Shown here: one piece after another, positions 3,951 through 37,453 of the stretch | Position numbering within the stretch: the first letter of the stretch is position 1 | Layout: every line of letters starts with the position of its first letter | Source: an uncultured bacterium | Lineage (GTDB): Bacteria; Patescibacteriota; Minisyncoccia; Phycocordibacterales; UBA2100 | Assembly: GCA_903824595.1 (NCBI GenBank) | Contig: CAIJXH010000002.1 | Span: 7,209-71,208 of the forward strand | Direction: 5' to 3' | Length of the DNA: 64,000 nucleotides | Position numbers and translations under genes: made by a program | Notes under the pieces: model-generated | The model's input: the letters and a program-made list of their open reading frames with translations, nothing else | Told to the model about the DNA's origin: nothing | Databases searched by the model: none

Positions 3951-4024
3951 CCCCTCGCGCAGGGCTAGGGGTAGGTAGCGGCACTATAGCATACGTTGCT
4001 ACGCATTCATCGGCACATCCATAG

Positions 4025-4945
4025 TCATAGCATTGCCGCTTCTTCTTTCAACACAACGCCAAACCGCATGTGAACAGCGTCTTTTATGTGTTGCGCCAAT
4101 GTCCGCACGTCATGAGCAGTCGCTGACCCGCTTTCGTTCACGAGATAATTGGGATGCTGCTCGCTTGCTTTTGCACCACCCACTCGCGCACCTTTCATTC
4201 CCACTTTTTCTATCAGCCATCCGGCAGGCACACGCCCTTCGCGCGCTCGCACCTCTTTCTCTTGTTCAAAGAGCGCGACCACCTCGGGCGGCGCGATGGG
4301 ATTCATAAAATAGGAACCGGCGGCGCGCACATGCTGCAAGTGCCGCTTTTCGCGCTCAGCGATCGTCTCCGCCGCGAGCCGTTCGCTTTCCTCTCGCGCC
4401 GTCTGCACAAGTCTGACTTGTGCAGAGGTGATGATCCACTGCGGATTGTCTTTGAAGAAACTATGGCGGTAGGAAAAATCGCATTCGCTTGCGGCAAACT
4501 CGCGCGCTTCGCCTGCCACCGAATCAATCGCCCGCGCCGACACCAAAAAATCCTTCATCTCCGATCCAAACGCGCCCGCATTCCCCCGCACCGCACCGCC
4601 AATGCTTCCCGGAATGCCTGCTAGCTTTTCCCATCCGCCAAGATTGTTCTTTGCCGCCGCGTGGATAAGCGCGAGCACATTACATCCCGCTTGTGCAGTA
4701 AGCACATCACCCTCGAATGAAAATGAGCCGCTGACGATATGAATCACCAGCCCGTCGAAACCACTATCCGACACGAGCACATTACTCCCGCCGCCAAGGA
4801 CCGTAAAAGGAAGGCGGCGGTCGCGAGCATACGCGACCGCCGCCCCCACCTCCTCCTCACTCTTCACCTCCACCACATACCGCGCCCCCCCACCGATGTG
4901 AAAGGTCGTGAGCGGCGCAAGCGGGATGTGTTCGCGAATGTCCAT
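4025..4945 (-). CDS. murB: UDP-N-acetylenolpyruvoylglucosamine reductase
   Basis: A 306 aa protein with an FAD-binding PCMH N-terminus (HIGGGARYVVEV...LGGGSNVLVSD) and a MurB-type C-terminal domain. Confidence 0.8.
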   Translation of the reverse strand: MDIREHIPLAPLTTFHIGGGARYVVEVKSEEEVGAAVAYARDRRLPFTVLGGGSNVLVSDSGFDGLVIHIVSGSFSFEGDVLTAQAGCNVLALIHAAAKNNLGGWEKLAGIPGSIGGAVRGNAGAFGSEMKDFLVSARAIDSVAGEAREFAASECDFSYRHSFFKDNPQWIITSAQVRLVQTAREESERLAAETIAEREKRHLQHVRAAGSYFMNPIAPPEVVALFEQEKEVRAREGRVPAGWLIEKVGMKGARVGGAKASEQHPNYLVNESGSATAHDVRTLAQHIKDAVHMRFGVVLKEEAAML

Positions 4946-12342: not shown

Positions 12343-13257
12343 TCAGCGAACCGGGACGGGGGTGCCGTTCGGAACGCCGACATCGGTCATGAAGAACGTG
12401 CTGCTTCCGCCAGCCTTCGCCGTCATCGCCTGCATCATCATCAGCTTGTAGATGAAGGCGCGTTGACCGGTCGGATCCGCTTTGATGAAGGCGTCGATCT
12501 TCAGCATGGCGTCGGTCAGCTTGTCGGCCGCTTGAGCGGACGCGATGGCACTGATCACTGACGGATCTGGCTTCACATTTGATGCGATCGCAGTGACGAG
12601 AAACAACGGCGAGTTGTTTTCGGCGAGCACCGTGCCGATCATCATCTTCATCTTGTCGGTGAAGCCTTCGGGCGTGCCGTTCTTGGCGATCGCGTCGAAG
12701 ACCGCGTCGACACTGGCGTAGCTCAGGCAGATGTCGCGGATTTTACCGCGCACCTGCTGTTGAACCTGCTGGAAGTAGACCGAAGCCGCGTCGAGGACGA
12801 GGACACGGTCACCGCCGAACTGCTCGTCCTTGGCGCGAACCGGCTTCCCGAGGATTCCCATCCGCAAGATCGCCTCCCGCCCCGCCGGTTTGGTGTGGTC
12901 TGGCATGGCGAAGAGCAGGCGAACATCGAGTGACATCGGCTCGCGCTTCGGCCCGACGATGCAACGATGGTCTTCGTGATCCTTGTCGTTGTTGGGATCG
13001 TTCTGGGCGAACTGCTCCTTGATGGCGAAGCCGCCGCGCTGCAGGAGTACCAGCTTGTTGCCCCAATCAGCGAACCAGCCTTTGGCACCGATGTCGACTT
13101 GGCCGGACTCGTAGATCTTGCCGTCGAACCCGCTCGGCGTGAGAATCATCCCGATCATGTCGGGAGGAATCGCACGCGGTTCCGAAGCAAACGACGAACC
13201 GCCGGTCAGGGTCGCAATCGCGACCGCGAGGGCGGCAACCAGTGAGAATTTACGCAT
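12343..13257 (-). CDS. hypothetical secreted protein (304 aa, N-terminal signal peptide)
   Basis: The N-terminus MRKFSLVAALAVAIATLTGGSSFA is signal-peptide-like, and the gene has markedly GC-rich third codon positions relative to its neighbours. No family was recognised. Confidence 0.55.
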   Translation of the reverse strand: MRKFSLVAALAVAIATLTGGSSFASEPRAIPPDMIGMILTPSGFDGKIYESGQVDIGAKGWFADWGNKLVLLQRGGFAIKEQFAQNDPNNDKDHEDHRCIVGPKREPMSLDVRLLFAMPDHTKPAGREAILRMGILGKPVRAKDEQFGGDRVLVLDAASVYFQQVQQQVRGKIRDICLSYASVDAVFDAIAKNGTPEGFTDKMKMMIGTVLAENNSPLFLVTAIASNVKPDPSVISAIASAQAADKLTDAMLKIDAFIKADPTGQRAFIYKLMMMQAMTAKAGGSSTFFMTDVGVPNGTPVPVR

Positions 13258-14553: not shown

Positions 14554-16776
14554 CTATTTTGCAACTTTTTGAGCATCCTCAAGCTTCACCGATAACAAGC
14601 GCGACACACCATCTTGACCCATCGTAATGCCATACAGTTCACCTGCAGCTGCCATGGTAGCTCGATTATGCGTGATAACAATCAATTGAGAATGTTTTCC
14701 GAGTTCGCGAATCATGTCGGCATATCGACGACTGTTTGCTTCATCAAGCGCAGCATCAGTCTCATCAAGAATAAGAAACGGTGGTGGATTGACACGGCTC
14801 ATTGAGAATATGAGCGCAATCGACGTGAGTGCGCGTTCACCTCCAGAAAGAGCTTCCAGTCCACGAACTTTCTTGCGCGGAAGCGCCACCGATATGGAGA
14901 GTCCAACAGAAAGATCCACGTTACTCTCACGCGACACAGCATCGTCCGCATCGTCATATGAATCGTTGTCATCATCTTCTTCATGCGCTCGAGTATTCGG
15001 ACGCTCTAGCTCAAGCATTGCGTGACCACCCCCAAAGAGCTGGTGGAAAAACAAAGCGAGAGATTCGTTGATCTTGATCAGTCCTTCGTGAAAACGAGCG
15101 TCGATGGTTTTTTCAAGATCTGTAATAATACCCCTCAACGACACCGCGGATTTCTCAAGGTCAATAATCTCATGCTCGAGAAACTCATCGCGCTCTTTTG
15201 TTTGTTTGAATTCTTTGATCACGGCGTCCCCGTTTCCAATACCAGATTCTTCTATTTTTATTTTGAGACGTTCGATATCGCGACGACGTTTTTCTTGCAT
15301 ACTTCGATCTTCAGAAAGTGCGCCATACGGGATTTCGGATCGTTCCCATGAATGGATCGCCGCACCGACAAGCGCTATCCCTTCTCGTACCTCATCCTCA
15401 AATCTTCGCTTCAGATCGACAATCGCCGCACGAGCAACACGCGCAGCGTCGCGCTTACTTTGTGCGTCACGCGCATTCGCTTCTAATTGCACAATATCAC
15501 GCTCTGCCGCAAGACGCTGCTCGCGTATACGCGCAATCTTTTGTCGCGCCATTTCACTGCTTTCACTGAGAATCATTTCTGTTTCCTGCGCTTTCTGAAG
15601 AAGCGTCTGGATGTTCGCGACCTGCTGACGAGCTTCTGCATTCGTAACCGGCGCACCATTTTCAAGACCATCAACGAACGATCGTATGCTCGACCGAAGT
15701 TGAGACACTCCCGATCGAATGAGGTTCACGTCTGTTGCGCGTTCTATGTCGGCAAGTGCGATTTCAATATCACGGAAAAATCCGCGCACATGCGGCACCG
15801 CCACGATCGCTTCGACGGTCACGTGATTTGCCTCGAGCGCACCTTCTGCGCGCCCAAGTTCACGCGCGAGCCGTTCACGTTCTCTACGCGCATCAGCCAC
15901 ACGCACGGTGAACTCGGAGACGGAACGCTCAAGATCGGATACATTATATGCATCTGGATCACCAGCTTTTCGCGCATCGGCAATTGCGTCAAGACATGTT
16001 TGCAACACGCGCTCATGAGCATGTTCATCATCGCTTATACGAGCATCTTCTTGTGTAATCCACGCATGTTCACGCGCAAGATATTCATTGAGGCGCGCCG
16101 CCAAATCTTCTCGCTGCTCACGCGCGCGTTCGATTTTTTCCACTTGTGAGCGCAAAAATCGTAAATGCGGCGCTATCTCGCGGCGCAGGGATGCCGTCTT
16201 TTCGAGATTGAGTGCCGTCTCTTCGAGTTTTCTTTCGCTCTCTATCTTCTTGTGCTGATACAATTTGAGACCAAGTGCGTCTTCGAGCATTTCGCGGCGC
16301 TCGCGCGGGCTTGCGTTGAGAATTCGATCGGCTTCGCCTTGCGAGATGATTTGATATCCCGAACCGCCAATGTTGGCACCAGCAAGAAGACGGATCACGT
16401 CTTTGAGACGCACCTGCGTACCGTTGAGCAGATACTCATTCAAGCCATCGCGATACACGGAGCGCTCGATCGTCACCTCGGAAAAGTCCATGTCGAGCAG
16501 CCGCGTGGAATTATCGAATGTAACTTTCACCCCCGCACGGTTGGCACGCGACAAGGCGGGCGATCCGCCCCAGATCAAATCCTCACCCTTCTTGCTACGC
16601 ATCGATTTCATCGACTGCTCGCCCAAGACGAAACGAAACGCTTCCGCGACATTCGACTTCCCGCTTCCATTCGGCCCCACAATGCTCGCAATCGGCGACG
16701 TGAAAACAAGCGCCGTCTTTTTCCCAAACGACTTGAAACCCGACAGCTCGATGGATTTGAGGTACATCGAATACAT
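14554..16776 (-). CDS. smc: SMC-family chromosome segregation ATPase (short, 740 aa)
   Basis: The N-terminal Walker A (IVGPNGSGKSNVAEAF), a long coiled-coil region and the C-terminal signature plus Walker B (LSGGERALTSIALIFSMSRVNPPPFLILDETDAALD) are present. The position next to rnc is the conserved smc locus, but the protein is about 400 aa shorter than canonical SMC. Confidence 0.75.
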   Translation of the reverse strand: MYSMYLKSIELSGFKSFGKKTALVFTSPIASIVGPNGSGKSNVAEAFRFVLGEQSMKSMRSKKGEDLIWGGSPALSRANRAGVKVTFDNSTRLLDMDFSEVTIERSVYRDGLNEYLLNGTQVRLKDVIRLLAGANIGGSGYQIISQGEADRILNASPRERREMLEDALGLKLYQHKKIESERKLEETALNLEKTASLRREIAPHLRFLRSQVEKIERAREQREDLAARLNEYLAREHAWITQEDARISDDEHAHERVLQTCLDAIADARKAGDPDAYNVSDLERSVSEFTVRVADARRERERLARELGRAEGALEANHVTVEAIVAVPHVRGFFRDIEIALADIERATDVNLIRSGVSQLRSSIRSFVDGLENGAPVTNAEARQQVANIQTLLQKAQETEMILSESSEMARQKIARIREQRLAAERDIVQLEANARDAQSKRDAARVARAAIVDLKRRFEDEVREGIALVGAAIHSWERSEIPYGALSEDRSMQEKRRRDIERLKIKIEESGIGNGDAVIKEFKQTKERDEFLEHEIIDLEKSAVSLRGIITDLEKTIDARFHEGLIKINESLALFFHQLFGGGHAMLELERPNTRAHEEDDDNDSYDDADDAVSRESNVDLSVGLSISVALPRKKVRGLEALSGGERALTSIALIFSMSRVNPPPFLILDETDAALDEANSRRYADMIRELGKHSQLIVITHNRATMAAAGELYGITMGQDGVSRLLSVKLEDAQKVAK

Positions 16777-16859: not shown

Positions 16860-17546
16860 TCACCATCCCCTAGCCGCCAGCGCCTTCTCCGCCGCTGCTT
16901 GTTCGGCTTCTTGTTTGGAGCGACCTTCGCCAGCTGCCACTTTTTCGCGACCAATGTATGCGCCGACGACAAACACTCTGTCGTGATCCGGACCAGACTG
17001 GCTCTGCAGCTGGTATGTCGGCGTCACATTTTCCTTCTCCTGCGCCATCTCTTGAAAACGACTCTTCGCATCTTGCCACAAGCGCTTCGCGACCACCTCG
17101 TCGGTCTTGTGGAACAGCTGCGCCGCGATGAATTGCTGCGCCGCTCCATACCCAGCATCAAGGTACACAGCACCGATCAGCGCCTCAAATGCATTGGCAA
17201 GAATTATTTGCCGCGCGCGCCCCGTGTCTTTCGATTCTCCGCGCGAGAGAAGTAAAAAATCATTCATGCCGAGTTTGGTTGCCGCATCGGAAATGCTCTG
17301 CGTGTTCACCAATGCTGCGCGATACGCCGTGAGATCTCCTTCCGACTTCTCGGGATATTTCGCGTAGAGAAAATCAGTGACGACCAGCTCCAATACGGCG
17401 TCACCGAGAAACTCAAGTCGCTCATTGTGTTCGCGCCCGGGAGTCCTATTTTCATTCAAATATGACCGATGTGTAAACGCCTGCTCAATGAGTGATGAGG
17501 TGCGAAACACATGCCCGATCCGTTGTTCAAACGATCCGAAATCCAT
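16860..17546 (-). CDS. rnc: ribonuclease III
   Basis: A 228 aa protein with the RNase III signature (ERLEFLGDAVLELVVTDFLY) and a C-terminal dsRBD (GPDHDRVFVVGAYIGREKVAAGEGRSKQEAEQAAAEKAL). Confidence 0.9.
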   Translation of the reverse strand: MDFGSFEQRIGHVFRTSSLIEQAFTHRSYLNENRTPGREHNERLEFLGDAVLELVVTDFLYAKYPEKSEGDLTAYRAALVNTQSISDAATKLGMNDFLLLSRGESKDTGRARQIILANAFEALIGAVYLDAGYGAAQQFIAAQLFHKTDEVVAKRLWQDAKSRFQEMAQEKENVTPTYQLQSQSGPDHDRVFVVGAYIGREKVAAGEGRSKQEAEQAAAEKALAARGW

Positions 17547-17548
17547 AT

Positions 17549-18511
17549 CTAAGACCTATGCTTTTGCGCGAGAATGTTGATCGCGCGCGTCACGACAGGC
17601 AATATATCATCATAAAAATTGAGATCGCCCACCGACGCAAGAGGAAACCATTGCGCGTCATCGAGTCCGCCGTCTCTTTTGAGCAGGAGGTCTCGGAATT
17701 TTCCGCGCGCCAAATAGTAGGTCGCGTGACGTCGTTTTTTACCAAGCTTGCTCAAACTCGCCACATCACTTGCGATATATTCATTTTCTCCCAACATATC
17801 TTCCACATCGACATCGAGTCCGATCTCTTCATTTACCTTACGCCGCACTCCAACTTCTTTTGATTCACCCTGCTGCAATTTACCCTTTGAAAGAGTCCAG
17901 TGCCCGAAAATATCGTGCACCAACGCAAGATAAATCTGTTCGGCACCCTTGGCTGCATCGACAGGGATATCTCGTGCATACACCACGGCACCTACCAATT
18001 CTTCAACCGCCATATGGCTAGCAATGTAATCCGTTTGTTTGTGCATCTTCCCTTCGCCCTTACCCGGTTCGCCAAGCTCGATATACACTGCACCCAATAC
18101 GCCATTGACAAACCTGCTCGACGACGCACTTCCAAACGCTTTCGCCAGTTCAATTGATTCATTGATCGCAACCTTTGCGGGCACTTGCGAGCGATCTGCA
18201 TACAAAAGCTCTGCCAAACCAAGACGCAACACACAGCGATCAATCGCGGCAATTTTCTTAAGTGGCCATTCAGGTGCGGCACGCATGATCACTGCGTCAA
18301 TCTCTTTTTGTTTGAGAATGACGGTATGCACAAGCGTTCTCATGAAAGAGAAATCTGACTCGCGCGCTCCGAATTCTTTTGCATAAGAAACAAGGCGGCT
18401 CTCTGCTTCTGGCGCCGCCATCGTCCCTGAACTTTGGTCATATTCAAACAAGACTTGGAGGACGACTGATCGGGCTAGGTGTCTGTTTGACATATGATAG
18501 TGAAAGATCAA
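17549..18511 (-). CDS. nusB: NusB-like N-terminal domain fused to a C-terminal NUDIX hydrolase domain
   Basis: The N-terminal ~150 aa are NusB-like (RHLARSVVLQVLFEYD...IDRCVLRLGLAELLYAD...), and the C-terminus has a Nudix box GKLQQGESKEVGVRRKVNEEIGL (G-x5-E-x7-R-K-V-x-E-E-x-G-L). The true start may be a few codons downstream of the annotated one. Confidence 0.7.
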   Translation of the reverse strand: MIFHYHMSNRHLARSVVLQVLFEYDQSSGTMAAPEAESRLVSYAKEFGARESDFSFMRTLVHTVILKQKEIDAVIMRAAPEWPLKKIAAIDRCVLRLGLAELLYADRSQVPAKVAINESIELAKAFGSASSSRFVNGVLGAVYIELGEPGKGEGKMHKQTDYIASHMAVEELVGAVVYARDIPVDAAKGAEQIYLALVHDIFGHWTLSKGKLQQGESKEVGVRRKVNEEIGLDVDVEDMLGENEYIASDVASLSKLGKKRRHATYYLARGKFRDLLLKRDGGLDDAQWFPLASVGDLNFYDDILPVVTRAINILAQKHRS

Positions 18512-18534
18512 GTAAACATGAAAACGCGAAGACG

Positions 18535-18798
18535 TTACGTCTTCGCGGTACTTTTATCGGGAGTTTGTCCTGATTCGCGAAGTCCAGCCGAACGACGCTT
18601 GGCACGTCGCGCATCTCGAGTCGCGCGAGCGACGACGTCAACCACGACTCGTCCGTTGTACGTACCACACTGACGACACGCGCGATGCGACACGCGAGAC
18701 GCTCCGCACCCGCACTTCGCCAACCGTGCAGGCACGATTGCATGATGAGAACGGCGTTTTGCCGTTTGGGAACGATTTCTGCGCATTCGTACTACCAT
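18535..18798 (-). CDS. rpmF: 50S ribosomal protein L32
   Basis: An 87-aa sub-ORF (MVVRMRRNRSQTAKRRSHHAI...CRQCGTYNGRVVV) matches the L32 N-terminal basic motif and C-x2-C zinc ribbon. The ATG at 18798-18796 was verified, and the gene begins 9 nt after the rnhB stop. Confidence 0.7.
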   Translation of the reverse strand: MVVRMRRNRSQTAKRRSHHAIVPARLAKCGCGASRVSHRACRQCGTYNGRVVVDVVARATRDARRAKRRSAGLRESGQTPDKSTAKT

Positions 18799-22853: not shown

Positions 22854-23231
22854 ATGTGCGTTCTTGTACTAGATTTGAGAGCAGTGGAGCAAGGACTTGC
22901 CCGCTTGATAAAATTCTATGTCGGCCATGAGGCGATGTTCGCGGATACGAATAGTCGGTACCTGGCAGATGTCATCGGTACCATGATTGGCCCAAGCCCC
23001 GAAGCGCTTCAATGTTATTTTGAGGCGTCTCCGCGCGTGTCGCGCATTCTGATGGAATCGGCGCAAAGAGCAGGATTCCCTGTCAAATCCGTGAATCAGT
23101 TATGGCACGCGTTGCGAAAGGTTGAAAAAAGAGTACGAAAACATCAGCCCATTGAAGCTGATGTGCGAAATCAGATTGAGGTACTAATCCATTTGATTGT
23201 ACACGGTTTATGTGATTGTGGTGATGGATGA
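22854..23231 (+). CDS. hypothetical protein (125 aa)
   Basis: This ORF lies between dnaE and thrS and is followed by a perfect GC hairpin, but there is no recognisable family and the start is uncertain. Confidence 0.3.
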   Translation: MCVLVLDLRAVEQGLARLIKFYVGHEAMFADTNSRYLADVIGTMIGPSPEALQCYFEASPRVSRILMESAQRAGFPVKSVNQLWHALRKVEKRVRKHQPIEADVRNQIEVLIHLIVHGLCDCGDG

Positions 23232-25523: not shown

Positions 25524-26996
25524 TTAGGCGCGAGAGATGATGATGCGCGGCGCGGACCCGTTTTCAGATCGCACCACCGTCATCGCGTCTTTCGGCATGG
25601 ATGATACAGAGCGCGCAACAGAATCTTCACGCACAGGGAGATGTTCCAACGATCCGTGCACATCATGTGCATACGACACACGCGGCGATGCGACGTGAAC
25701 GCGTGCTGTCGGACGATGTGTATACGCAAACATGGTCGACATGCCGCCTCGATAGTAGAGCACCAGGTAGCTTGCCGCAACAGCGAAGGCAAGGATCGCC
25801 ATCCAGTAGATGCTGTTGCCAATCGCACCGAAGTCGAAGCCTGTATACGGAATCTGCGAGAGCGCAACGTACGGAGCGGCAGTCGTCGGTGCCACGTATC
25901 CCACTCCATATTCACCCACATTCACCACCGCCTGGCAGCGACCGACGATGCCCTGATTGCTGTAGACCGTAAGCTCGTAGGTCGTCGTCTGTGTCGGGTA
26001 CACGGTCGTCAAACCAGATGTATTCACCGATCCTCCAAACAGATACGCCGTCCACGCGTTTGCCGATGTCCACGTGAGGTTCACCGCTTGCCCTGCAGAT
26101 ATGGTGTTTGGCGTTGCCGTGAGTGAGCACGATGGGTATACCGTATTGGTTCCTGTGTAATACGAAGATGAATACGGATACGAGTATTGCACAGGATAGT
26201 ACGCAGGATAATCGGAAACCGTCTTCAAAGTGGAAATCGTCGAGCCGGAGCCGTAGGTGTTGAAGCTGCCGTTGATGCTGTTGTCGGTGTAATTGCAGCT
26301 ACCGTTGGTGCAGTAGTTGGAGCTGTAGTTGGAGACATTGGTGCTCCCCGGCGCACTCACCGTAAACGGAGTCGACGCAGTCGTGCCGTATGAGTATGAG
26401 GCGGGATAGGAGTATGACGCAGGGTATGAATACCCATAACCGGAGGAAGAGTATGCGGGATAGGAATAGCCTGTGGAATACGCAGGGTACGAGTAACCCG
26501 AGGAGGAAGCTGGGTAGGAATAACCCGTGGAACCATTGCCGTAGGAATACTTGGGTGCGCCAGTAGTGGGATAATAGTAGTTCGGTTGCGCATCGCGATA
26601 CGTAGTGACAAGATTTGGAGAATAGTACGAAGAGCCAAAATCCGCACTTCCAACACCAATCGGTGAATAGTAACTCGAACCAAAATCACCAGCTACGGTA
26701 GGAGAATAATAAGACGAACCGAAATCTTTCGCTTGAGCAGCATGAGAATAAAACGAGGTGCCAAAATCAGAATTCACTGGAGAATAGAAACTGGAACCAA
26801 AATCAACATTTTGCGCCGTACAACAAGGAGCATCAGCCGATCCAAAATCACTGACACTAGTATCTGACCCCGACGAGAAGAAACTTGAACCAAAATCCTC
26901 TTGCGCCAATGTCACACGCGGCGCCACACTCATCACGAAAAGACAGGCTAGCACCACGATCATGGACGAACGAAACTGCTTTGAAATATATGTCAT
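25524..26996 (-). CDS. repetitive cell-surface protein (signal peptide, DFGSS[FY]YSP and GYSYPA tandem repeats, Ig-like region, C-terminal TM anchor)
   Basis: The N-terminus MTYISKQFRSSMIVVLACLFVMSVAPRVTLA is signal-peptide-like. The DFGSSxYSP motif occurs at least seven times, followed by low-complexity S/Y/P repeats, a beta-rich segment, the hydrophobic stretch IYWMAILAFAVAASYLVLYY and a basic tail. Confidence 0.6.
   Translation of the reverse strand: MTYISKQFRSSMIVVLACLFVMSVAPRVTLAQEDFGSSFFSSGSDTSVSDFGSADAPCCTAQNVDFGSSFYSPVNSDFGTSFYSHAAQAKDFGSSYYSPTVAGDFGSSYYSPIGVGSADFGSSYYSPNLVTTYRDAQPNYYYPTTGAPKYSYGNGSTGYSYPASSSGYSYPAYSTGYSYPAYSSSGYGYSYPASYSYPASYSYGTTASTPFTVSAPGSTNVSNYSSNYCTNGSCNYTDNSINGSFNTYGSGSTISTLKTVSDYPAYYPVQYSYPYSSSYYTGTNTVYPSCSLTATPNTISAGQAVNLTWTSANAWTAYLFGGSVNTSGLTTVYPTQTTTYELTVYSNQGIVGRCQAVVNVGEYGVGYVAPTTAAPYVALSQIPYTGFDFGAIGNSIYWMAILAFAVAASYLVLYYRGGMSTMFAYTHRPTARVHVASPRVSYAHDVHGSLEHLPVREDSVARSVSSMPKDAMTVVRSENGSAPRIIISRA
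26390..26890 (-). repeat. intragenic tandem repeats encoding the DFGSSYYSP and (G)YSYPA peptide repeats
   Basis: Repeated units (e.g. gaaccaaaatc...) are visible in the DNA at roughly 36-45 nt periodicity; the boundaries given are approximate. Confidence 0.5.
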
Positions 26997-27156: not shown

Positions 27157-27609
27157 TCACTCGTGCACGTGCGTGCCCACGAGCACACGCTTGCCCCCCG
27201 GTGGCTTGCCTGTGCGGACCGCCTGAACCAGAGATGCGCCGGTAATCCAGCCAATCCCCTTCTCATCGCAAATCACGACCCACTTCGCGCCTGCAAACTT
27301 CGCAGGATGGCGACAAAAGTCGTCGCGAGGACCTGTAATCTTGGAGTCCTTGAACAGCGCATGAGAAAGCTGTTCTTGGATTCCTTGCGGCGTATCGCGC
27401 GGATTGAATTCCCGCAAGATAAACATCGCCACCTGCCCGTACCCCGCCTTTACAAACGGAATACTGACGCACGCAACAGGCGTACGCCCGCGGGTGTGTC
27501 CGGAACGCAAAACATTGCACGCGTCGCTATTGACGCACGCTCTTCCCGCCGCCATTGCCGGCACACTTGCCAGCAAGACAACCATCATGACAAAGATCAA
27601 TCGAATCAT
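27157..27609 (-). CDS. hypothetical secreted protein (~150 aa)
   Basis: The internal start MIRLIFVMMVVLLASVPAMAAG gives a signal peptide, and the protein is cysteine-containing. No family was recognised. Confidence 0.4.
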   Translation of the reverse strand: MIRLIFVMMVVLLASVPAMAAGRACVNSDACNVLRSGHTRGRTPVACVSIPFVKAGYGQVAMFILREFNPRDTPQGIQEQLSHALFKDSKITGPRDDFCRHPAKFAGAKWVVICDEKGIGWITGASLVQAVRTGKPPGGKRVLVGTHVHE

Positions 27610-27734
27610 TGCTTCCCTCCACTTCCTCAGGATTTCTTGCCTACACAAATGTATACGCAAGAAGCCACAAAGAATCAAGAAAATTTTTGGGCAGACTATG
27701 AACACGCCGTGTGTTCATAGTCTGCCCCAGTAGA

Positions 27735-28169
27735 TCAGTTCCAGCTCAAGTTCCCTATGAGAGAACCGTCGGGAAGCCGGCACTGATTCTTGCATTCGCG
27801 TTGCCTATTGCTGAGCACGCGGCAAGTATCGCTTCTAACCAGCGTCCCGCCCTTATTTTTGCAGGACTGCGCTTTCGAGGCATTCGACACCCCGTCAAAC
27901 GTGAACCCTTGCGGGGTCCCCTCGACGCGGAACACCTCCGCGCCAATGCCATACCGCACCACCTGCGGAGTGGGTGCCGGAGGCGGATTCGCCACCGCAC
28001 CTGACACCGCGACCGCGGGTGCCTTGTACTCCGTGGTGGCGACCTGCTGGGTGGTGGCGGGAGCATTCCACTTATTCACCCCCCACACAATCAGAGCCAA
28101 AACCGCCACGACGCCCACGAAGGCGCCCAGCCCTTTGAGGGCCTTTTTGCGACCATCAGTGAAAGTCAT
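27735..28169 (-). CDS. hypothetical membrane-anchored protein (144 aa)
   Basis: An N-terminal TM segment (LGAFVGVVAVLALIVWGV) is followed by an Ala/Pro-rich linker and a Cys-containing C-terminal domain. Confidence 0.4.
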   Translation of the reverse strand: MTFTDGRKKALKGLGAFVGVVAVLALIVWGVNKWNAPATTQQVATTEYKAPAVAVSGAVANPPPAPTPQVVRYGIGAEVFRVEGTPQGFTFDGVSNASKAQSCKNKGGTLVRSDTCRVLSNRQRECKNQCRLPDGSLIGNLSWN

Positions 28170-36738: not shown

Positions 36739-36844
36739 GATCGTACACAGGAATTCTCCATGTGCGTGCCATACAATCCTTGCACTTTCGTAGTTTTCAT
36801 GTACGTTTTCGAGTAGCATACATGTTCTTTTTTTGGAGGATGAG

Positions 36845-37453
36845 ATGACCGAGGCGTTCATTGCACAACTTACAGAACACGACCTCACGGAGGTTGCCGT
36901 GCATCACACTTTGAGACAGGTTCTAGGATACGGAGACGCACTATACATCACCGTTGAATCACCAGGCTCGTATCTTGAACATCGAAGTATGGCAAACCTA
37001 CTTGAGCGTTTTGACGAAGACGGGGATGAGGAAAAATACCACGAAATCTCAGGTAGATTTCTCGGGATTGCGCGCGCTCTCAACATACGTCTCAACATTG
37101 AGCCATACCTCAACGTGATCAGGAATGTGTCCGAGACTGGTTACAGGGATTTCGTCATAAGCCGTGGCTCATACCTCACTGCACTTATGGTGACAAAAAA
37201 ATTGGAGCATTTGGGATTTACACTGGTAGATTCGGCGACATTCATAAAGATGGATGCTCGCGGTGTTATCGATCGCGATGCAACAAAACTTGCGTGGCAA
37301 CAATTACGTGTCACCGGAAAATTGGTTATCCCTAGCACATATGGATCTAATCCTGATAAGTCTATACACATATGCAATTCAAGAACCGTAATAACAGCGC
37401 TCGCGGAACTACTCGCCAGTTCTGGAATGTACGAGCGAGTCGTCATCGTATAA
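36845..37453 (+). CDS. hypothetical protein (~200 aa)
   Basis: A GGAGG RBS lies 5 nt upstream of the ATG at 36845, and a hairpin plus T7 terminator follows. GC is lower than in the core genome. No family was recognised. Confidence 0.5.
   Translation: MTEAFIAQLTEHDLTEVAVHHTLRQVLGYGDALYITVESPGSYLEHRSMANLLERFDEDGDEEKYHEISGRFLGIARALNIRLNIEPYLNVIRNVSETGYRDFVISRGSYLTALMVTKKLEHLGFTLVDSATFIKMDARGVIDRDATKLAWQQLRVTGKLVIPSTYGSNPDKSIHICNSRTVITALAELLASSGMYERVVIV

What the first reader, a model, noticed from the sequence alone, without database searches (positions are those of the whole stretch)
17549..18511. NusB antitermination-factor domain fused to a NUDIX hydrolase domain
The N-terminal ~150 residues have NusB hallmarks, and the C-terminal ~150 residues carry a clear Nudix box (GKLQQGESKEVGVRRKVNEEIGL). 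NusB is normally a stand-alone ~140-aa protein. A covalently attached Nudix hydrolase would place a pyrophosphohydrolase activity on the rRNA antitermination/transcription complex, comparable to an RppH-like RNA 5'-pyrophosphohydrolase or a nucleotide-sanitising enzyme. The gene sits between rnc and rpmF/rnhB, an RNA-processing neighbourhood.
Basis: partly seen in the sequence, partly recalled or inferred. Interest (0 to 1): 0.55.

Follow-up and report, generated by a model that had tools for sequence, protein, structure and literature searches.

The report
NusB fused to a Nudix domain
In a large group of tiny uncultured bacteria (Parcubacteria), the rRNA transcription factor NusB always carries an attached Nudix domain of the type that strips phosphates or caps from RNA 5' ends; nobody has studied the fusion, and it suggests a direct link between rRNA transcription, RNA 5'-end chemistry and RNase III processing.

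Summary
One minus-strand ORF (ATG 18493 to stop 17549, 314 aa) has a bona fide NusB domain (aa 1-141), a roughly 17-residue disordered linker and a Nudix domain (aa 159-314). It is not a frameshift artefact. 82 of 83 related loci carry both domains in a single ORF. At least 572 species-level Patescibacteria genomes encode a relative. All 240 top hits of two homologue searches have both Pfam domains.

By profile and fold, the Nudix half belongs with the Ap4A-hydrolase/NUDT2 group, which is related to RppH and Dcp2. The Nudix box is not fully canonical: the "RE" glutamate is lysine (K219). Changing that glutamate to alanine inactivates E. coli RppH and human NUDT2. Across 236 fused proteins the position toggles between E (108) and K (94), and the rest of the box stays intact in both groups.

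RNase III follows the gene directly in 78 of 79 loci. A BoxA-like motif lies just upstream of the start codon in 43 of 77 loci, against 14 of 428 other gene starts.

The most likely function is NusB tethering a 5'-polyphosphate- or cap-directed Nudix module to BoxA-bearing RNA. Catalysis is untested. The fusion sits in databases annotated simply as "NusB", and I found no paper describing it. Novelty: new variant of a known kind. Interest about 0.5.

The parts
17549..18493 (-). nusB::nudix coding sequence (314 aa plus TAG stop). The true start is the ATG at 18493, not the TTG at 18511.
   Evidence: homologues start MANRHLARS
18071..18493 (-). NusB domain, aa 1-141, seven helices
   Evidence: Pfam and NCBIfam above cut-off. 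Aligns end to end with E. coli NusB, E=6e-14. Foldseek TM 0.80-0.87 (normalised to the target) to M. tuberculosis, T. maritima, Aquifex and E. coli NusB. F128 = F122, D85 = E81 and F16 = Y18 are conserved.
18020..18070 (-). Linker, aa 142-158, predicted disordered. It begins with the invariant ELGEPGK motif.
   Evidence: AF2 pLDDT below 50 for residues 142-158; motif invariant in alignment A1
17552..18019 (-). Nudix domain, aa 159-314, alpha/beta/alpha fold of the Ap4A-hydrolase/NUDT2 type
   Evidence: Pfam. Foldseek best match 3i7u, TM 0.79 normalised to the target. Profile against PDB: 3i7u E=8e-16, then CT771, Ndx1, NUDT2, Dcp2.
17816..17884 (-). Nudix box, aa 204-226: G204 x5 E210 x7 R218 K219 V x E222 E223 x G225 L
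   Evidence: sequence; conservation counts
17837..17839 (-). Codon AAG for K219, at the position of the canonical 'RE' glutamate (E53 of RppH, E58 of NUDT2). It is one transition away from GAG.
   Evidence: PMC6061791; PMC8616924
18503..18510 (-). BoxA-like element TGATCTTT in the 5' leader, 10-17 nt upstream of the ATG
   Evidence: 43/77 against 14/428, Fisher p=5e-29. Consensus compared with PMC5725501 and PMC3177189.
18525..18547 (-). 10-bp GC-rich hairpin with the rpmF TAA stop in its loop, followed by TTTTCATGTT. It looks like a terminator between rpmF and nusB::nudix.
   Evidence: similar strong hairpins in several related loci
16860..17546 (-). rnc (RNase III). It starts 2 nt after the nusB::nudix stop, so the two are probably translationally coupled.
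   Evidence: adjacency in 78/79 loci
18535..18798 (-). rpmF (ribosomal protein L32), the upstream neighbour
   Evidence: upstream in 73 of 82 loci

Best explanation
This is the lineage's NusB, the BoxA-RNA-binding partner of ribosomal protein S10 in rRNA transcription antitermination. It carries, on a flexible tether of about 17 residues attached to the end of helix alpha7, a Nudix module of the Ap4A-hydrolase/NUDT2 class. That class is related to the RNA 5'-end enzymes RppH and Dcp2.

Proposed mechanism:
(1) The NusB half, with S10, binds BoxA on nascent RNA. This is inferred from conserved residues and from a BoxA-like motif in the gene's own leader.
(2) Binding holds the Nudix pocket within tens of angstroms of that RNA. 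The pocket residues D194, W199, T200, K203, Y239, Y259, W282 and Y294 are invariant or nearly so, and the metal ligands E210, E222 and E223 are retained. The pocket would then bind, and probably hydrolyse, a 5'-terminal polyphosphate or nucleotide cap (pppN-, Np4N-). This step is inferred.
(3) The action is coupled to RNase III, whose gene follows directly. The target would be the rRNA leader, and likely also the gene's own very short BoxA-containing mRNA as a form of autoregulation. This step is inferred.

In this window's protein the canonical RE glutamate is lysine. Catalysis may therefore be altered or reduced, although comparative data suggest that K is a function-preserving alternative in this family.
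For: - The fusion is real and is the normal form: 82 of 83 loci have a single ORF, at least 572 species genomes encode a relative, and all 240 listed hits of two searches carry PF01029 plus PF00293, from Kaiser-, Giovannoni-, Niyogi-, Vogel-, Taga-, Nomura-, Campbellbacteria and Paceibacterota.
- The NusB half is genuine: TIGR01951 scores above its cut-off. There is a full-length alignment to E. coli NusB, including chains from antitermination complexes. F122, E81 and Y18 equivalents are conserved in 34-35 of 35 deep representatives (residue roles from PMC3177189).
- The Nudix half sits in the ApnA-hydrolase group, with 3i7u at E=8e-16, followed by CT771, Ndx1, NUDT2 and Dcp2.
- NUDT2 dephosphorylates PPP-RNA (PMC8616924).
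- The pocket residues are more conserved than any other part of the domain.
- The rest of the box is fully canonical in 82/94 K219 proteins and 84/108 E219 proteins, but in only 12/34 with other residues at that position.
- rnc is adjacent in 78/79 loci. [quoted passage not shown]
- A BoxA-like motif lies upstream of the start in 43/77 loci against 14/428 other starts. BoxA-mediated Nus autoregulation has a precedent (PMC5725501).
- Tethering benefits a macromolecular substrate, not a freely diffusing nucleotide (inference).
Against: - No biochemical evidence exists for this protein.
- K219 replaces the glutamate whose alanine mutants are inactive in RppH and NUDT2.
- In some deep lineages the whole box is degenerate, for example P0242 and P0270. 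Hydrolysis is therefore not universally required.
- Scores against the RppH and MutT equivalogs are far below their cut-offs.
- The distance from BoxA to the RNA 5' end in these organisms' rRNA leaders is unknown, because no rRNA operon was available.
- The BoxA-like motif is short and is absent from 34 of 77 leaders.
- The loci are phylogenetically related, so the counts are not independent.
- The AF2 interdomain geometry is not informative (pTM 0.57).
Confidence: 0.4

Rival explanations
1. The Nudix domain is a non-catalytic, or barely catalytic, ligand sensor. It would bind a small nucleotide such as Ap4A, an NTP, NAD or ADP-ribose, or an alarmone, and modulate NusB activity. Nudix domains work this way in the transcription regulators NrtR and AraR.
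For: - The binding-pocket residues are more conserved than the catalytic glutamates.
- The RE glutamate is labile, and the box is degenerate in some lineages.
- The NrtR and AraR Nudix regulator domains appear among the fold matches (ranks 30-31, 41, 47).
- A related Nudix domain is fused to Sigma70_r4 and DnaA_C HTH domains in P0198, and it also has RK.
Against: - The metal ligands E210, E222 and E223 and R218 are retained in 86-97% of 236 proteins, and equally well in the K219 and E219 groups. That is not expected for a pure sensor.
- 108 of 236 proteins have a fully canonical RE.
- The linker is disordered, and no conserved interdomain interface is predicted.
Confidence: 0.2
2. The fusion joins two independently acting housekeeping proteins: NusB and an Ap4A/oxidised-nucleotide hydrolase (MutT1- or NUDT2-like). 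They would be fused only for co-expression in a streamlined genome, with no functional coupling.
For: - The closest solved relatives are Ap4A/Ap6A hydrolases and MutT1 diadenosine polyphosphatases acting on free nucleotides.
- The linker is flexible.
- Patescibacteria have reduced genomes in which fusions are plausible (general knowledge).
Against: - The fusion has been kept intact across very deep divergence, down to about 30% identity, and in hundreds of species.
- The only 'split' form checked at the DNA level is an in-frame nonsense codon.
- The linker motif ELGEPGK is invariant in the close set.
- Stand-alone close relatives of this Nudix subfamily are rare: only 311 representative clusters in 1.84 billion proteins, most of them fused or fragments.
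Confidence: 0.2
3. The Nudix fold has been re-used as a protein-protein or RNA-body docking module, for example for RNase III, S10, RNA polymerase or SuhB-like factors, rather than as a nucleotide-binding site.
For: - The C-terminal segment GGLDDAQWFPLASVGDLNFYDDILPVVTRAINILAQK is extremely conserved.
- rnc adjacency is nearly universal.
- In Dcp2 a helix adjoining the Nudix motif (Box B) takes part in partner and RNA binding (PMC6061791, introduction).
Against: The invariant residues map by alignment onto the nucleotide- and phosphate-binding positions of Ap4A hydrolases: the WT-x-x-KG motif, the Tyr pair and the basic loop. The metal ligands are also retained.
Confidence: 0.1
4. The fusion is an artefact: a frameshift, misassembly or read-through of two separate genes.
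For: One locus, L085, has nusB and nudix called as separate genes.
Against: - In L085 the break is a single in-frame TAA at the conserved Tyr codon of GAV-Y-ELGEP, with the linker still encoded in frame.
- 82 of 83 loci from independent assemblies have one ORF.
- Thousands of independent database proteins show the same architecture.
Confidence: 0.01

Closest known systems
NusB (TIGR01951 / PF01029), e.g. E. coli NusB in the NusB-S10-BoxA complex and the rRNA antitermination complex (rrnTAC)
   Same: Full-length sequence and fold match. The U8-stacking Phe (F128 = F122), the acidic residue (D85 = E81) and the aromatic at the S10 interface (F16 = Y18) are conserved. A BoxA-like motif is associated with the gene.
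   Different: It carries an additional 170-residue C-terminal linker plus Nudix domain. The gene is paired with rnc instead of the usual contexts. Binding to S10 and BoxA was not shown here.
Ap4A/ApnA Nudix hydrolases (Aquifex aq_158 3i7u, Chlamydia CT771, Thermus Ndx1, human NUDT2, C. elegans Ap4A hydrolase)
   Same: These are the best profile and fold matches over the whole domain. Shared features are the W-T-x-[PS]-K-G motif, the basic loop before the VxY[FY]L strand, the aromatic pair aligned to the base-stacking residues, and the C-terminal helix.
   Different: The domain is fused to NusB. The RE glutamate is Lys here and toggles between E and K across the family. The substrate is unknown.
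RppH / BsRppH / Dcp2 (RNA 5'-pyrophosphohydrolases and decapping enzymes)
   Same: Same superfamily and a neighbouring clade. Dcp2 and BdRppH appear among the matches. The concept is the same: a Nudix enzyme acting on RNA 5' ends to license decay or processing.
   Different: It is not an orthologue (RppH equivalog 21.7 bits against a cut-off of 118). RppH is stand-alone, or is activated by DapF. Here targeting would come from a covalently attached sequence-specific RNA-binding domain.
RsmB/Sun (NusB-like N-terminal domain fused to a 16S rRNA m5C methyltransferase)
   Same: It sets the architectural precedent: a NusB-fold RNA-binding domain at the N-terminus delivering a C-terminal enzyme to rRNA.
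   Different: The catalytic domain is different (methyltransferase against Nudix). The N-terminal domain here scores as true NusB, not RsmB (45.6 bits against 319).
NrtR / AraR (Nudix-fold transcription regulators)
   Same: A Nudix domain is fused to a nucleic-acid-binding domain and used in gene regulation. Catalytic residues are partly relaxed.
   Different: Those regulators use a winged-helix DNA-binding domain and are largely non-catalytic. Here the partner binds RNA and most of the Nudix box is retained.

Membership tests
NusB (transcription antitermination factor) | Sequence model above the curated threshold | tested here: met
   TIGR01951 scores 109 bits against 88.35; PF01029 scores 104 bits against 23.1
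NusB (transcription antitermination factor) | All-helical NusB fold | tested here: met
   The AF2 model has seven helices in aa 5-140. Foldseek TM, normalised to the target, is 0.78-0.87 to 1eyv, 1tzv, 3r2c and 3d3b.
NusB (transcription antitermination factor) | BoxA U8 pocket and S10-interface residues (F122, E81, Y18 in E. coli/Aquifex numbering) | tested here: met
   F128, D85 and F16 align to them. They are conserved in 34/35, 34/35 and 34/35 (F or Y) deep representatives. Residue roles are from PMC3177189, and Y18 from memory.
NusB (transcription antitermination factor) | Binds S10 and BoxA RNA and supports antitermination | not testable with these tools
   There is only indirect support: enrichment of a BoxA-like motif in the gene's own leader.
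NusB (transcription antitermination factor) | Is the sole NusB orthologue of the genome | not tested
   There is no second NusB in the 64-kb window. No whole genome was accessible.
Nudix superfamily (PF00293) | Sequence model above threshold and alpha/beta/alpha Nudix fold | tested here: met
   PF00293 scores 42.9 bits against 21.1. Foldseek to 3i7u gives TM 0.79 normalised to the target.
Nudix superfamily (PF00293) | Complete Nudix box GX5EX7REUXEEXGU | tested here: not met
   G204, E210, R218, E222, E223 and G225 are present, but the RE glutamate is K219. Of 236 relatives, 108 have E and 94 have K.
Nudix superfamily (PF00293) | Mg/Mn-dependent pyrophosphohydrolase activity | not testable with these tools
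   E53A in RppH and E58A in NUDT2, at the equivalent position, are inactive (PMC6061791, PMC8616924). The rest of the box is conserved equally in K and E proteins.
Ap4A-hydrolase / NUDT2-type Nudix subfamily | Closest profile and fold relatives; W-T-x-[PS]-K-G motif and aromatic base-stacking pair | tested here: met
   Profile against PDB: 3i7u at 8e-16, CT771 at 7e-13, Ndx1 at 7e-12, NUDT2 at 4e-10. W199, T200, K203, Y239 and Y294 are invariant or nearly so. The functional role of these residues is from memory of the Ap4A-hydrolase literature.
RppH (RNA pyrophosphohydrolase equivalog) | Score above the NCBIfam equivalog cut-off | tested here: not met
   NF001936 scores 21.7 bits against 118; NF001938 scores 14.2 against 116
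MutT (8-oxo-dGTP diphosphatase) | Score above the equivalog cut-off | tested here: not met
   TIGR00586 scores 17.4 bits against 97.9; NF008044 scores 20 against 148
RsmB (NusB-like domain plus methyltransferase) | Score above the equivalog cut-off; methyltransferase domain | tested here: not met
   NF011494 scores 45.6 bits against 319, and only the NusB-like part matches

The most novel reading that the evidence does not exclude
NusB::Nudix is a BoxA-guided RNA 5'-end enzyme. A sequence-specific antitermination factor delivers a decapping or pyrophosphohydrolase domain to the 5' end of nascent rRNA leaders, and to its own BoxA-containing leader as an autoregulatory loop. RNase III, encoded next door, and 5'-end-dependent nucleases then process or clear the leader. 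This would be the first transcription elongation/antitermination factor with a built-in RNA 5'-end-modifying activity. The recurrent E/K swap at the 'essential' RE glutamate would define a Nudix catalytic variant not previously recognised.
Probability: 0.25. Interest if true: 0.7.

Novelty: new variant of a known kind. Interest (0 to 1): 0.5.

Why it matters
NusB is treated in textbooks as a small stand-alone adaptor. Here an entire major lineage of uncultured bacteria has it welded to a Nudix module of the class that acts on dinucleoside polyphosphates and RNA 5' ends. The fusion gene is locked next to RNase III and preceded by a BoxA-like site.

If the Nudix half acts on the BoxA-bound transcript, three processes that are separate in model bacteria would be physically linked: transcription antitermination, RNA 5'-end chemistry and rRNA processing. 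It would also be a natural example of sequence-targeted decapping.

The family is a natural experiment on the supposedly essential RE glutamate of the Nudix box. E and K interchange even between proteins 80-90% identical, while the rest of the site stays conserved.

In practice, thousands of these proteins are annotated only as 'NusB', so the Nudix half goes unnoticed.

Tried and rejected
- **Frameshift or two-gene artefact:** rejected. 82 of 83 loci have a single ORF. The one split case, L085, is an in-frame TAA at a conserved Tyr codon.
- **Stand-alone relatives of the Nudix half:** most short hits in the representative search are fragments. L084 is a Nudix gene nt from the end of a 1.8-kb contig, so any NusB part would lie off the contig. 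Canonical stand-alone relatives are more distant.
- **Second NusB or Nudix gene in the window:** none found.
- **Single-sequence search of the Nudix half against PDB:** it gave only weak matches restricted to the box. A profile search was needed.
- **Literature:** three searches for NusB plus Nudix, fusion, domain architecture or Patescibacteria found nothing relevant.
- **Promoter scan:** not above chance. The motif TGHTCYTT is only mildly enriched in the whole window (22 found against 12.8 expected), so the BoxA-like argument rests on the cross-locus comparison.
- **Covariation with the E/K state at position 219:** only R/K255 and H/Y198 differ between the groups, and this may be phylogenetic.
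- **NJ tree with Fitch parsimony:** it gives about 51 changes at position 219. The tree is crude, so I rely on the tree-free pair analysis instead.
- **Organism names from cluster look-up:** mostly uninformative.
Full report
**Observation.** The minus-strand ORF 17549..18511 is present. All close homologues begin MANRHLARS/MSNRHLARS, so the real start is the ATG at 18493, giving 314 aa; that numbering is used below. Pfam finds NusB (PF01029, E=1e-29) and NUDIX (PF00293, E=6e-11), both above the gathering thresholds. NCBIfam's nusB equivalog TIGR01951 scores 109 bits against a cut-off of 88.35. All MutT, RppH, NudI and RsmB models are far below their cut-offs. The window has 51% GC, and the genes annotated with Pfam are housekeeping genes.

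**Is the fusion real?** Yes. A search of 5.8 billion proteins returned thousands of hits. The best 120 are all about 303-305 aa, 70-76% identical, and carry both Pfam domains. Where named they are 'transcription antitermination factor NusB' from Candidatus Kaiserbacteria, Paceibacterota, Parcubacteria or Uhrbacteria. A second search seeded with a very divergent fused member (P0242) again returned 120 proteins with both domains, from Giovannoni-, Niyogi-, Vogel-, Tagabacteria, Paceibacter and others.

In 82 of the 83 loci held at that point, a single ORF contains both domains; the exception is cut by a contig end. The only 'two-gene' version I could examine (L085) has an in-frame TAA exactly at the conserved Tyr codon of GAV-Y-ELGEP, with the linker still encoded in frame. 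It is a nonsense mutation or a sequencing error, not a natural split form.

**Anatomy.** AlphaFold2 with a 25-sequence alignment gives mean pLDDT 78. It predicts seven helices at residues 5-140, a segment with pLDDT below 50 at 142-158, and a Nudix-type alpha/beta/alpha domain at 163-310. The pTM of 0.57 means the relative orientation of the domains is undetermined. The start of the linker, ELGEPGK, is invariant among close homologues.

**The NusB half.**
- It aligns end to end with E. coli NusB (E=6e-14), including chains from the lambda-N and rRNA antitermination complexes.
- It superposes on M. tuberculosis, T. maritima, Aquifex and E. coli NusB with TM 0.78-0.87, normalised to the target.
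- In the Aquifex NusB-NusE-BoxA structure, the 8-nt BoxA runs from the NusB N-terminus to helix alpha7 at the NusE interface. F122 stacks on U8 and E81 reads its base, and EcNusB F122D is defective (PMC3177189).
- The aligned residues here, F128 and D85, are conserved in 34 of 35 deeply divergent fused representatives and in 120 of 120 proteins of the second set. The aromatic aligned to E. coli Y18 is F or Y in 34 of 35.
- The Nudix domain is attached directly after alpha7, next to where the 3' end of BoxA sits.

**The Nudix half.**
- On its own it is a small, distinct subfamily: only 311 of 1.84 billion cluster representatives match at E<=1e-3. The full-length ones are mostly 280-360 aa with an N-terminal NusB.
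- A profile of 21 diverse members hits Aquifex Ap4A hydrolase 3i7u (E=8e-16), Chlamydia CT771, Thermus Ndx1 (Ap6A hydrolase), human NUDT2, yeast Dcp2, C. elegans Ap4A hydrolase and mycobacterial MutT1/Rv2985, over the whole domain including the C-terminal helix.
- Foldseek agrees, with 3i7u at TM 0.79 normalised to the target.
- The domain therefore belongs to the ApnA-hydrolase branch. Members of that branch and its neighbours (NUDT2, RppH, Dcp2) act on RNA 5' ends; NUDT2 converts PPP-RNA to P-RNA (PMC8616924).

**The Nudix box.** The box reads G204-x5-E210-x7-R218-K219-V-N-E222-E223-I-G225-L. The canonical RE glutamate is therefore lysine.
- That glutamate is E53 in E. coli RppH (motif residues 38-60; E53A is inactive, PMC6061791).
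- By my indexing of the aligned sequence it is E58 in NUDT2 (E58A is inactive on PPP-RNA, PMC8616924).
- Among 83 species-level relatives at 54-77% identity, the position is K in 64, E in 14 and A/S/T/V in 5. The E-containing proteins have a perfectly canonical box, REIKEE.
- In the Giovannonibacteria-type set it is E in 87 and K in 21 of 120.
- Pooling 236 fused proteins gives E 108, K 94 and other 34. For comparison: W199 236/236, Y239 235/236, E223 230, R218 221, E210 213, E222 204.
- The E/K state differs even between proteins at least 80% identical: 66 of 609 such pairs differ, and 38 of those are E/K pairs. It is one G/A transition (AAG here).
- The rest of the box is fully canonical in 82 of 94 K proteins and 84 of 108 E proteins, but in only 12 of 34 proteins with another residue.

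I read this as follows. K is a tolerated and possibly functional alternative to E in this family. Hydrophobic or small replacements go with decay of the site, and a few deep lineages have lost the box altogether (e.g. P0242, P0270). These counts are not phylogenetically independent.

The most conserved residues of the domain are not the metal ligands. They are D194, W199, T200, K203, Y239, Y259, W282 and Y294 (34-35 of 35 deep representatives). By alignment several of them fall on the W-T-x-P-K-G motif and the aromatic positions that, from my memory of the Ap4A-hydrolase literature, bind phosphates and stack the base.

**Context.** RNase III lies immediately downstream in 78 of the 79 loci with enough sequence. 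The gaps range from an 8-nt overlap to 169 nt, and about half are 15 nt or less. L32 is upstream in 73 loci, RNase HII in 60, and SMC is nearby in 64 of 82. [quoted passage not shown] A nusB-rnc gene pair therefore makes functional sense.

**A BoxA-like element in the gene's own leader (found in passing).**
- The 50 nt upstream of the nusB::nudix start contain G[ACT]TC[CT]TT in 43 of 77 loci, against 14 of 428 other predicted gene starts in the same loci (Fisher p=5e-29).
- The motif is concentrated within 30 nt of the ATG and often occurs as two tandem copies (GCTCTTT…GATCTTT).
- The window has TGATCTTT at 18510-18503, 10-17 nt before the ATG, and no Shine-Dalgarno sequence.
- This matches the BoxA core: E. 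coli consensus GYTCTTTAANA (PMC5725501). Aquifex differs from the E. coli rrn BoxA only at positions 1, 6 and 9, with C at position 6 (PMC3177189).
- In many loci an extended-minus-10-like TGTACAAT or TACACT sits 8-11 nt upstream of the motif (by eye). That would make the mRNA leader little more than BoxA plus the ATG.
- Baniulyte et al. showed that a BoxA in the suhB leader recruits Nus factors to repress translation, and proposed that Nus-factor autoregulation is widespread (PMC5725501). The same logic would apply here.
- It would also place the tethered Nudix pocket near the 5' triphosphate of the gene's own mRNA.
- In the window, a 10-bp GC-rich hairpin with the rpmF stop codon in its loop, followed by TTTTCATGTT, lies just upstream at 18547-18525. 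Similar strong hairpins occur in several related loci.

**Interpretation.** Shown:
- The fusion is conserved.
- The NusB half is genuine.
- The Nudix half is of the ApnA-hydrolase type, with an intact pocket and a box that is canonical except for E to K at the RE position.
- The gene is adjacent to rnc.
- A BoxA-like motif is enriched in the leader.

Inferred:
- NusB (with S10) docks on BoxA RNA.
- The tethered Nudix module then engages a 5'-terminal polyphosphate or cap of that RNA.
- This is coupled to RNase III processing and possibly to autoregulation.

Tethering argues for a macromolecular substrate, because a freely diffusing nucleotide gains nothing from it. I put about 0.4 on this model. 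I put about 0.2 each on a ligand-sensing role (NrtR-like) and on an independent housekeeping Ap4A/nucleotide hydrolase fused only for co-expression. A docking role gets about 0.1, and an artefact about 0.01. Whether the K219 form hydrolyses anything is the key unknown.

**Novelty.** Both domains are well known, and the architecture is present in public databases, but it is named only 'NusB'. Full-text searches of about 8 million papers and preprints for NusB together with Nudix found nothing on it; most subscription-journal papers are outside that library. RsmB (a NusB-like domain plus a methyltransferase) is an architectural precedent, and NrtR/AraR are precedents for Nudix domains in regulators. 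I classify this as a new variant of a known kind, of moderate interest (0.5). It is clade-wide, mechanistically suggestive and directly testable, but no function has been demonstrated.

Noticed in passing
window 18503-18510 (-); related loci L003-L083, 50 nt upstream of the fused gene: A BoxA-like motif G[ACT]TC[CT]TT (TGATCTTT in the window) lies directly upstream of the nusB::nudix start codon in 43/77 loci, against 14/428 other gene starts. It is often present in two tandem copies and there is no Shine-Dalgarno sequence. This suggests Nus-factor autoregulation of nusB.
   Followed up: partly
window 18525-18547 (-): A 10-bp, GC-rich hairpin has the rpmF TAA stop codon in its loop and is followed by TTTTCATGTT. 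It looks like a terminator sitting between rpmF and the antitermination-factor gene. Strong hairpins occur at the same place in several related loci (e.g. L014, L020, L029, L006, L083, L033).
   Followed up: partly
related loci, about 20-35 nt upstream of the fused gene's ATG (e.g. L032, L027, L037, L016, L014, L020, L012): A recurrent extended-minus-10-like sequence, TGTACAAT or TACACT, sits 8-11 nt upstream of the BoxA-like motif. This implies a very short leader that starts almost at BoxA. It was seen by eye only and not tested statistically, and it is not obvious in the window itself.
   Followed up: no
L085 940-942: An apparent split nusB/nudix gene pair is caused by a single in-frame TAA replacing the conserved Tyr codon of GAV-Y-ELGEP. 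The downstream frame still encodes the linker and the Nudix domain.
   Followed up: yes
proteins P0198 and P0217: The same Nudix subfamily occurs in other nucleic-acid-binding fusions. P0198 has Sigma70_r4, a DnaA_C helix-turn-helix and Nudix (also with RK in the box). P0217 is a 577-aa protein with a weak cold-shock-domain hit, NusB and Nudix.
   Followed up: no
aa 198 against aa 219 of the fused family (window codons 17900-17902 and 17837-17839): The residue before the invariant Trp co-varies with the E/K state of the box. It is His in 71% of K219 proteins but in only 23% of E219 proteins, which mostly have Tyr. This may be phylogenetic or compensatory.
   Followed up: partly
window 14554-16776 (-); L001 7880-10084: The SMC homologue is only about 735-740 aa, much shorter than typical bacterial SMC as I recall it (about 1,150-1,200 aa). 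It is conserved at this length in related loci.
   Followed up: no
window aa 176-187 of the fused protein (about 17933-17968, -): The window's protein has a roughly 12-residue insertion (DIPVDAAKGAEQ) in a loop between two N-terminal beta-strands of the Nudix domain (model strands 163-175 and 186-193). Most close homologues lack it, and its pLDDT is low.
   Followed up: no
L061 about 4000-4440 (+): A second, stand-alone Nudix ORF (147 aa, E=9e-8 to the family profile) lies about 3 kb downstream of the fused gene in one Parcubacteria locus.
   Followed up: no
window 12343-13257 (-), 25524-26996 (-), 27157-27705 (-), 27735-28169 (-), 36833-37453 (+), 22854-23231 (+): Several sizeable ORFs have no Pfam match at E<=1e-3. 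They may be lineage-specific proteins.
   Followed up: no
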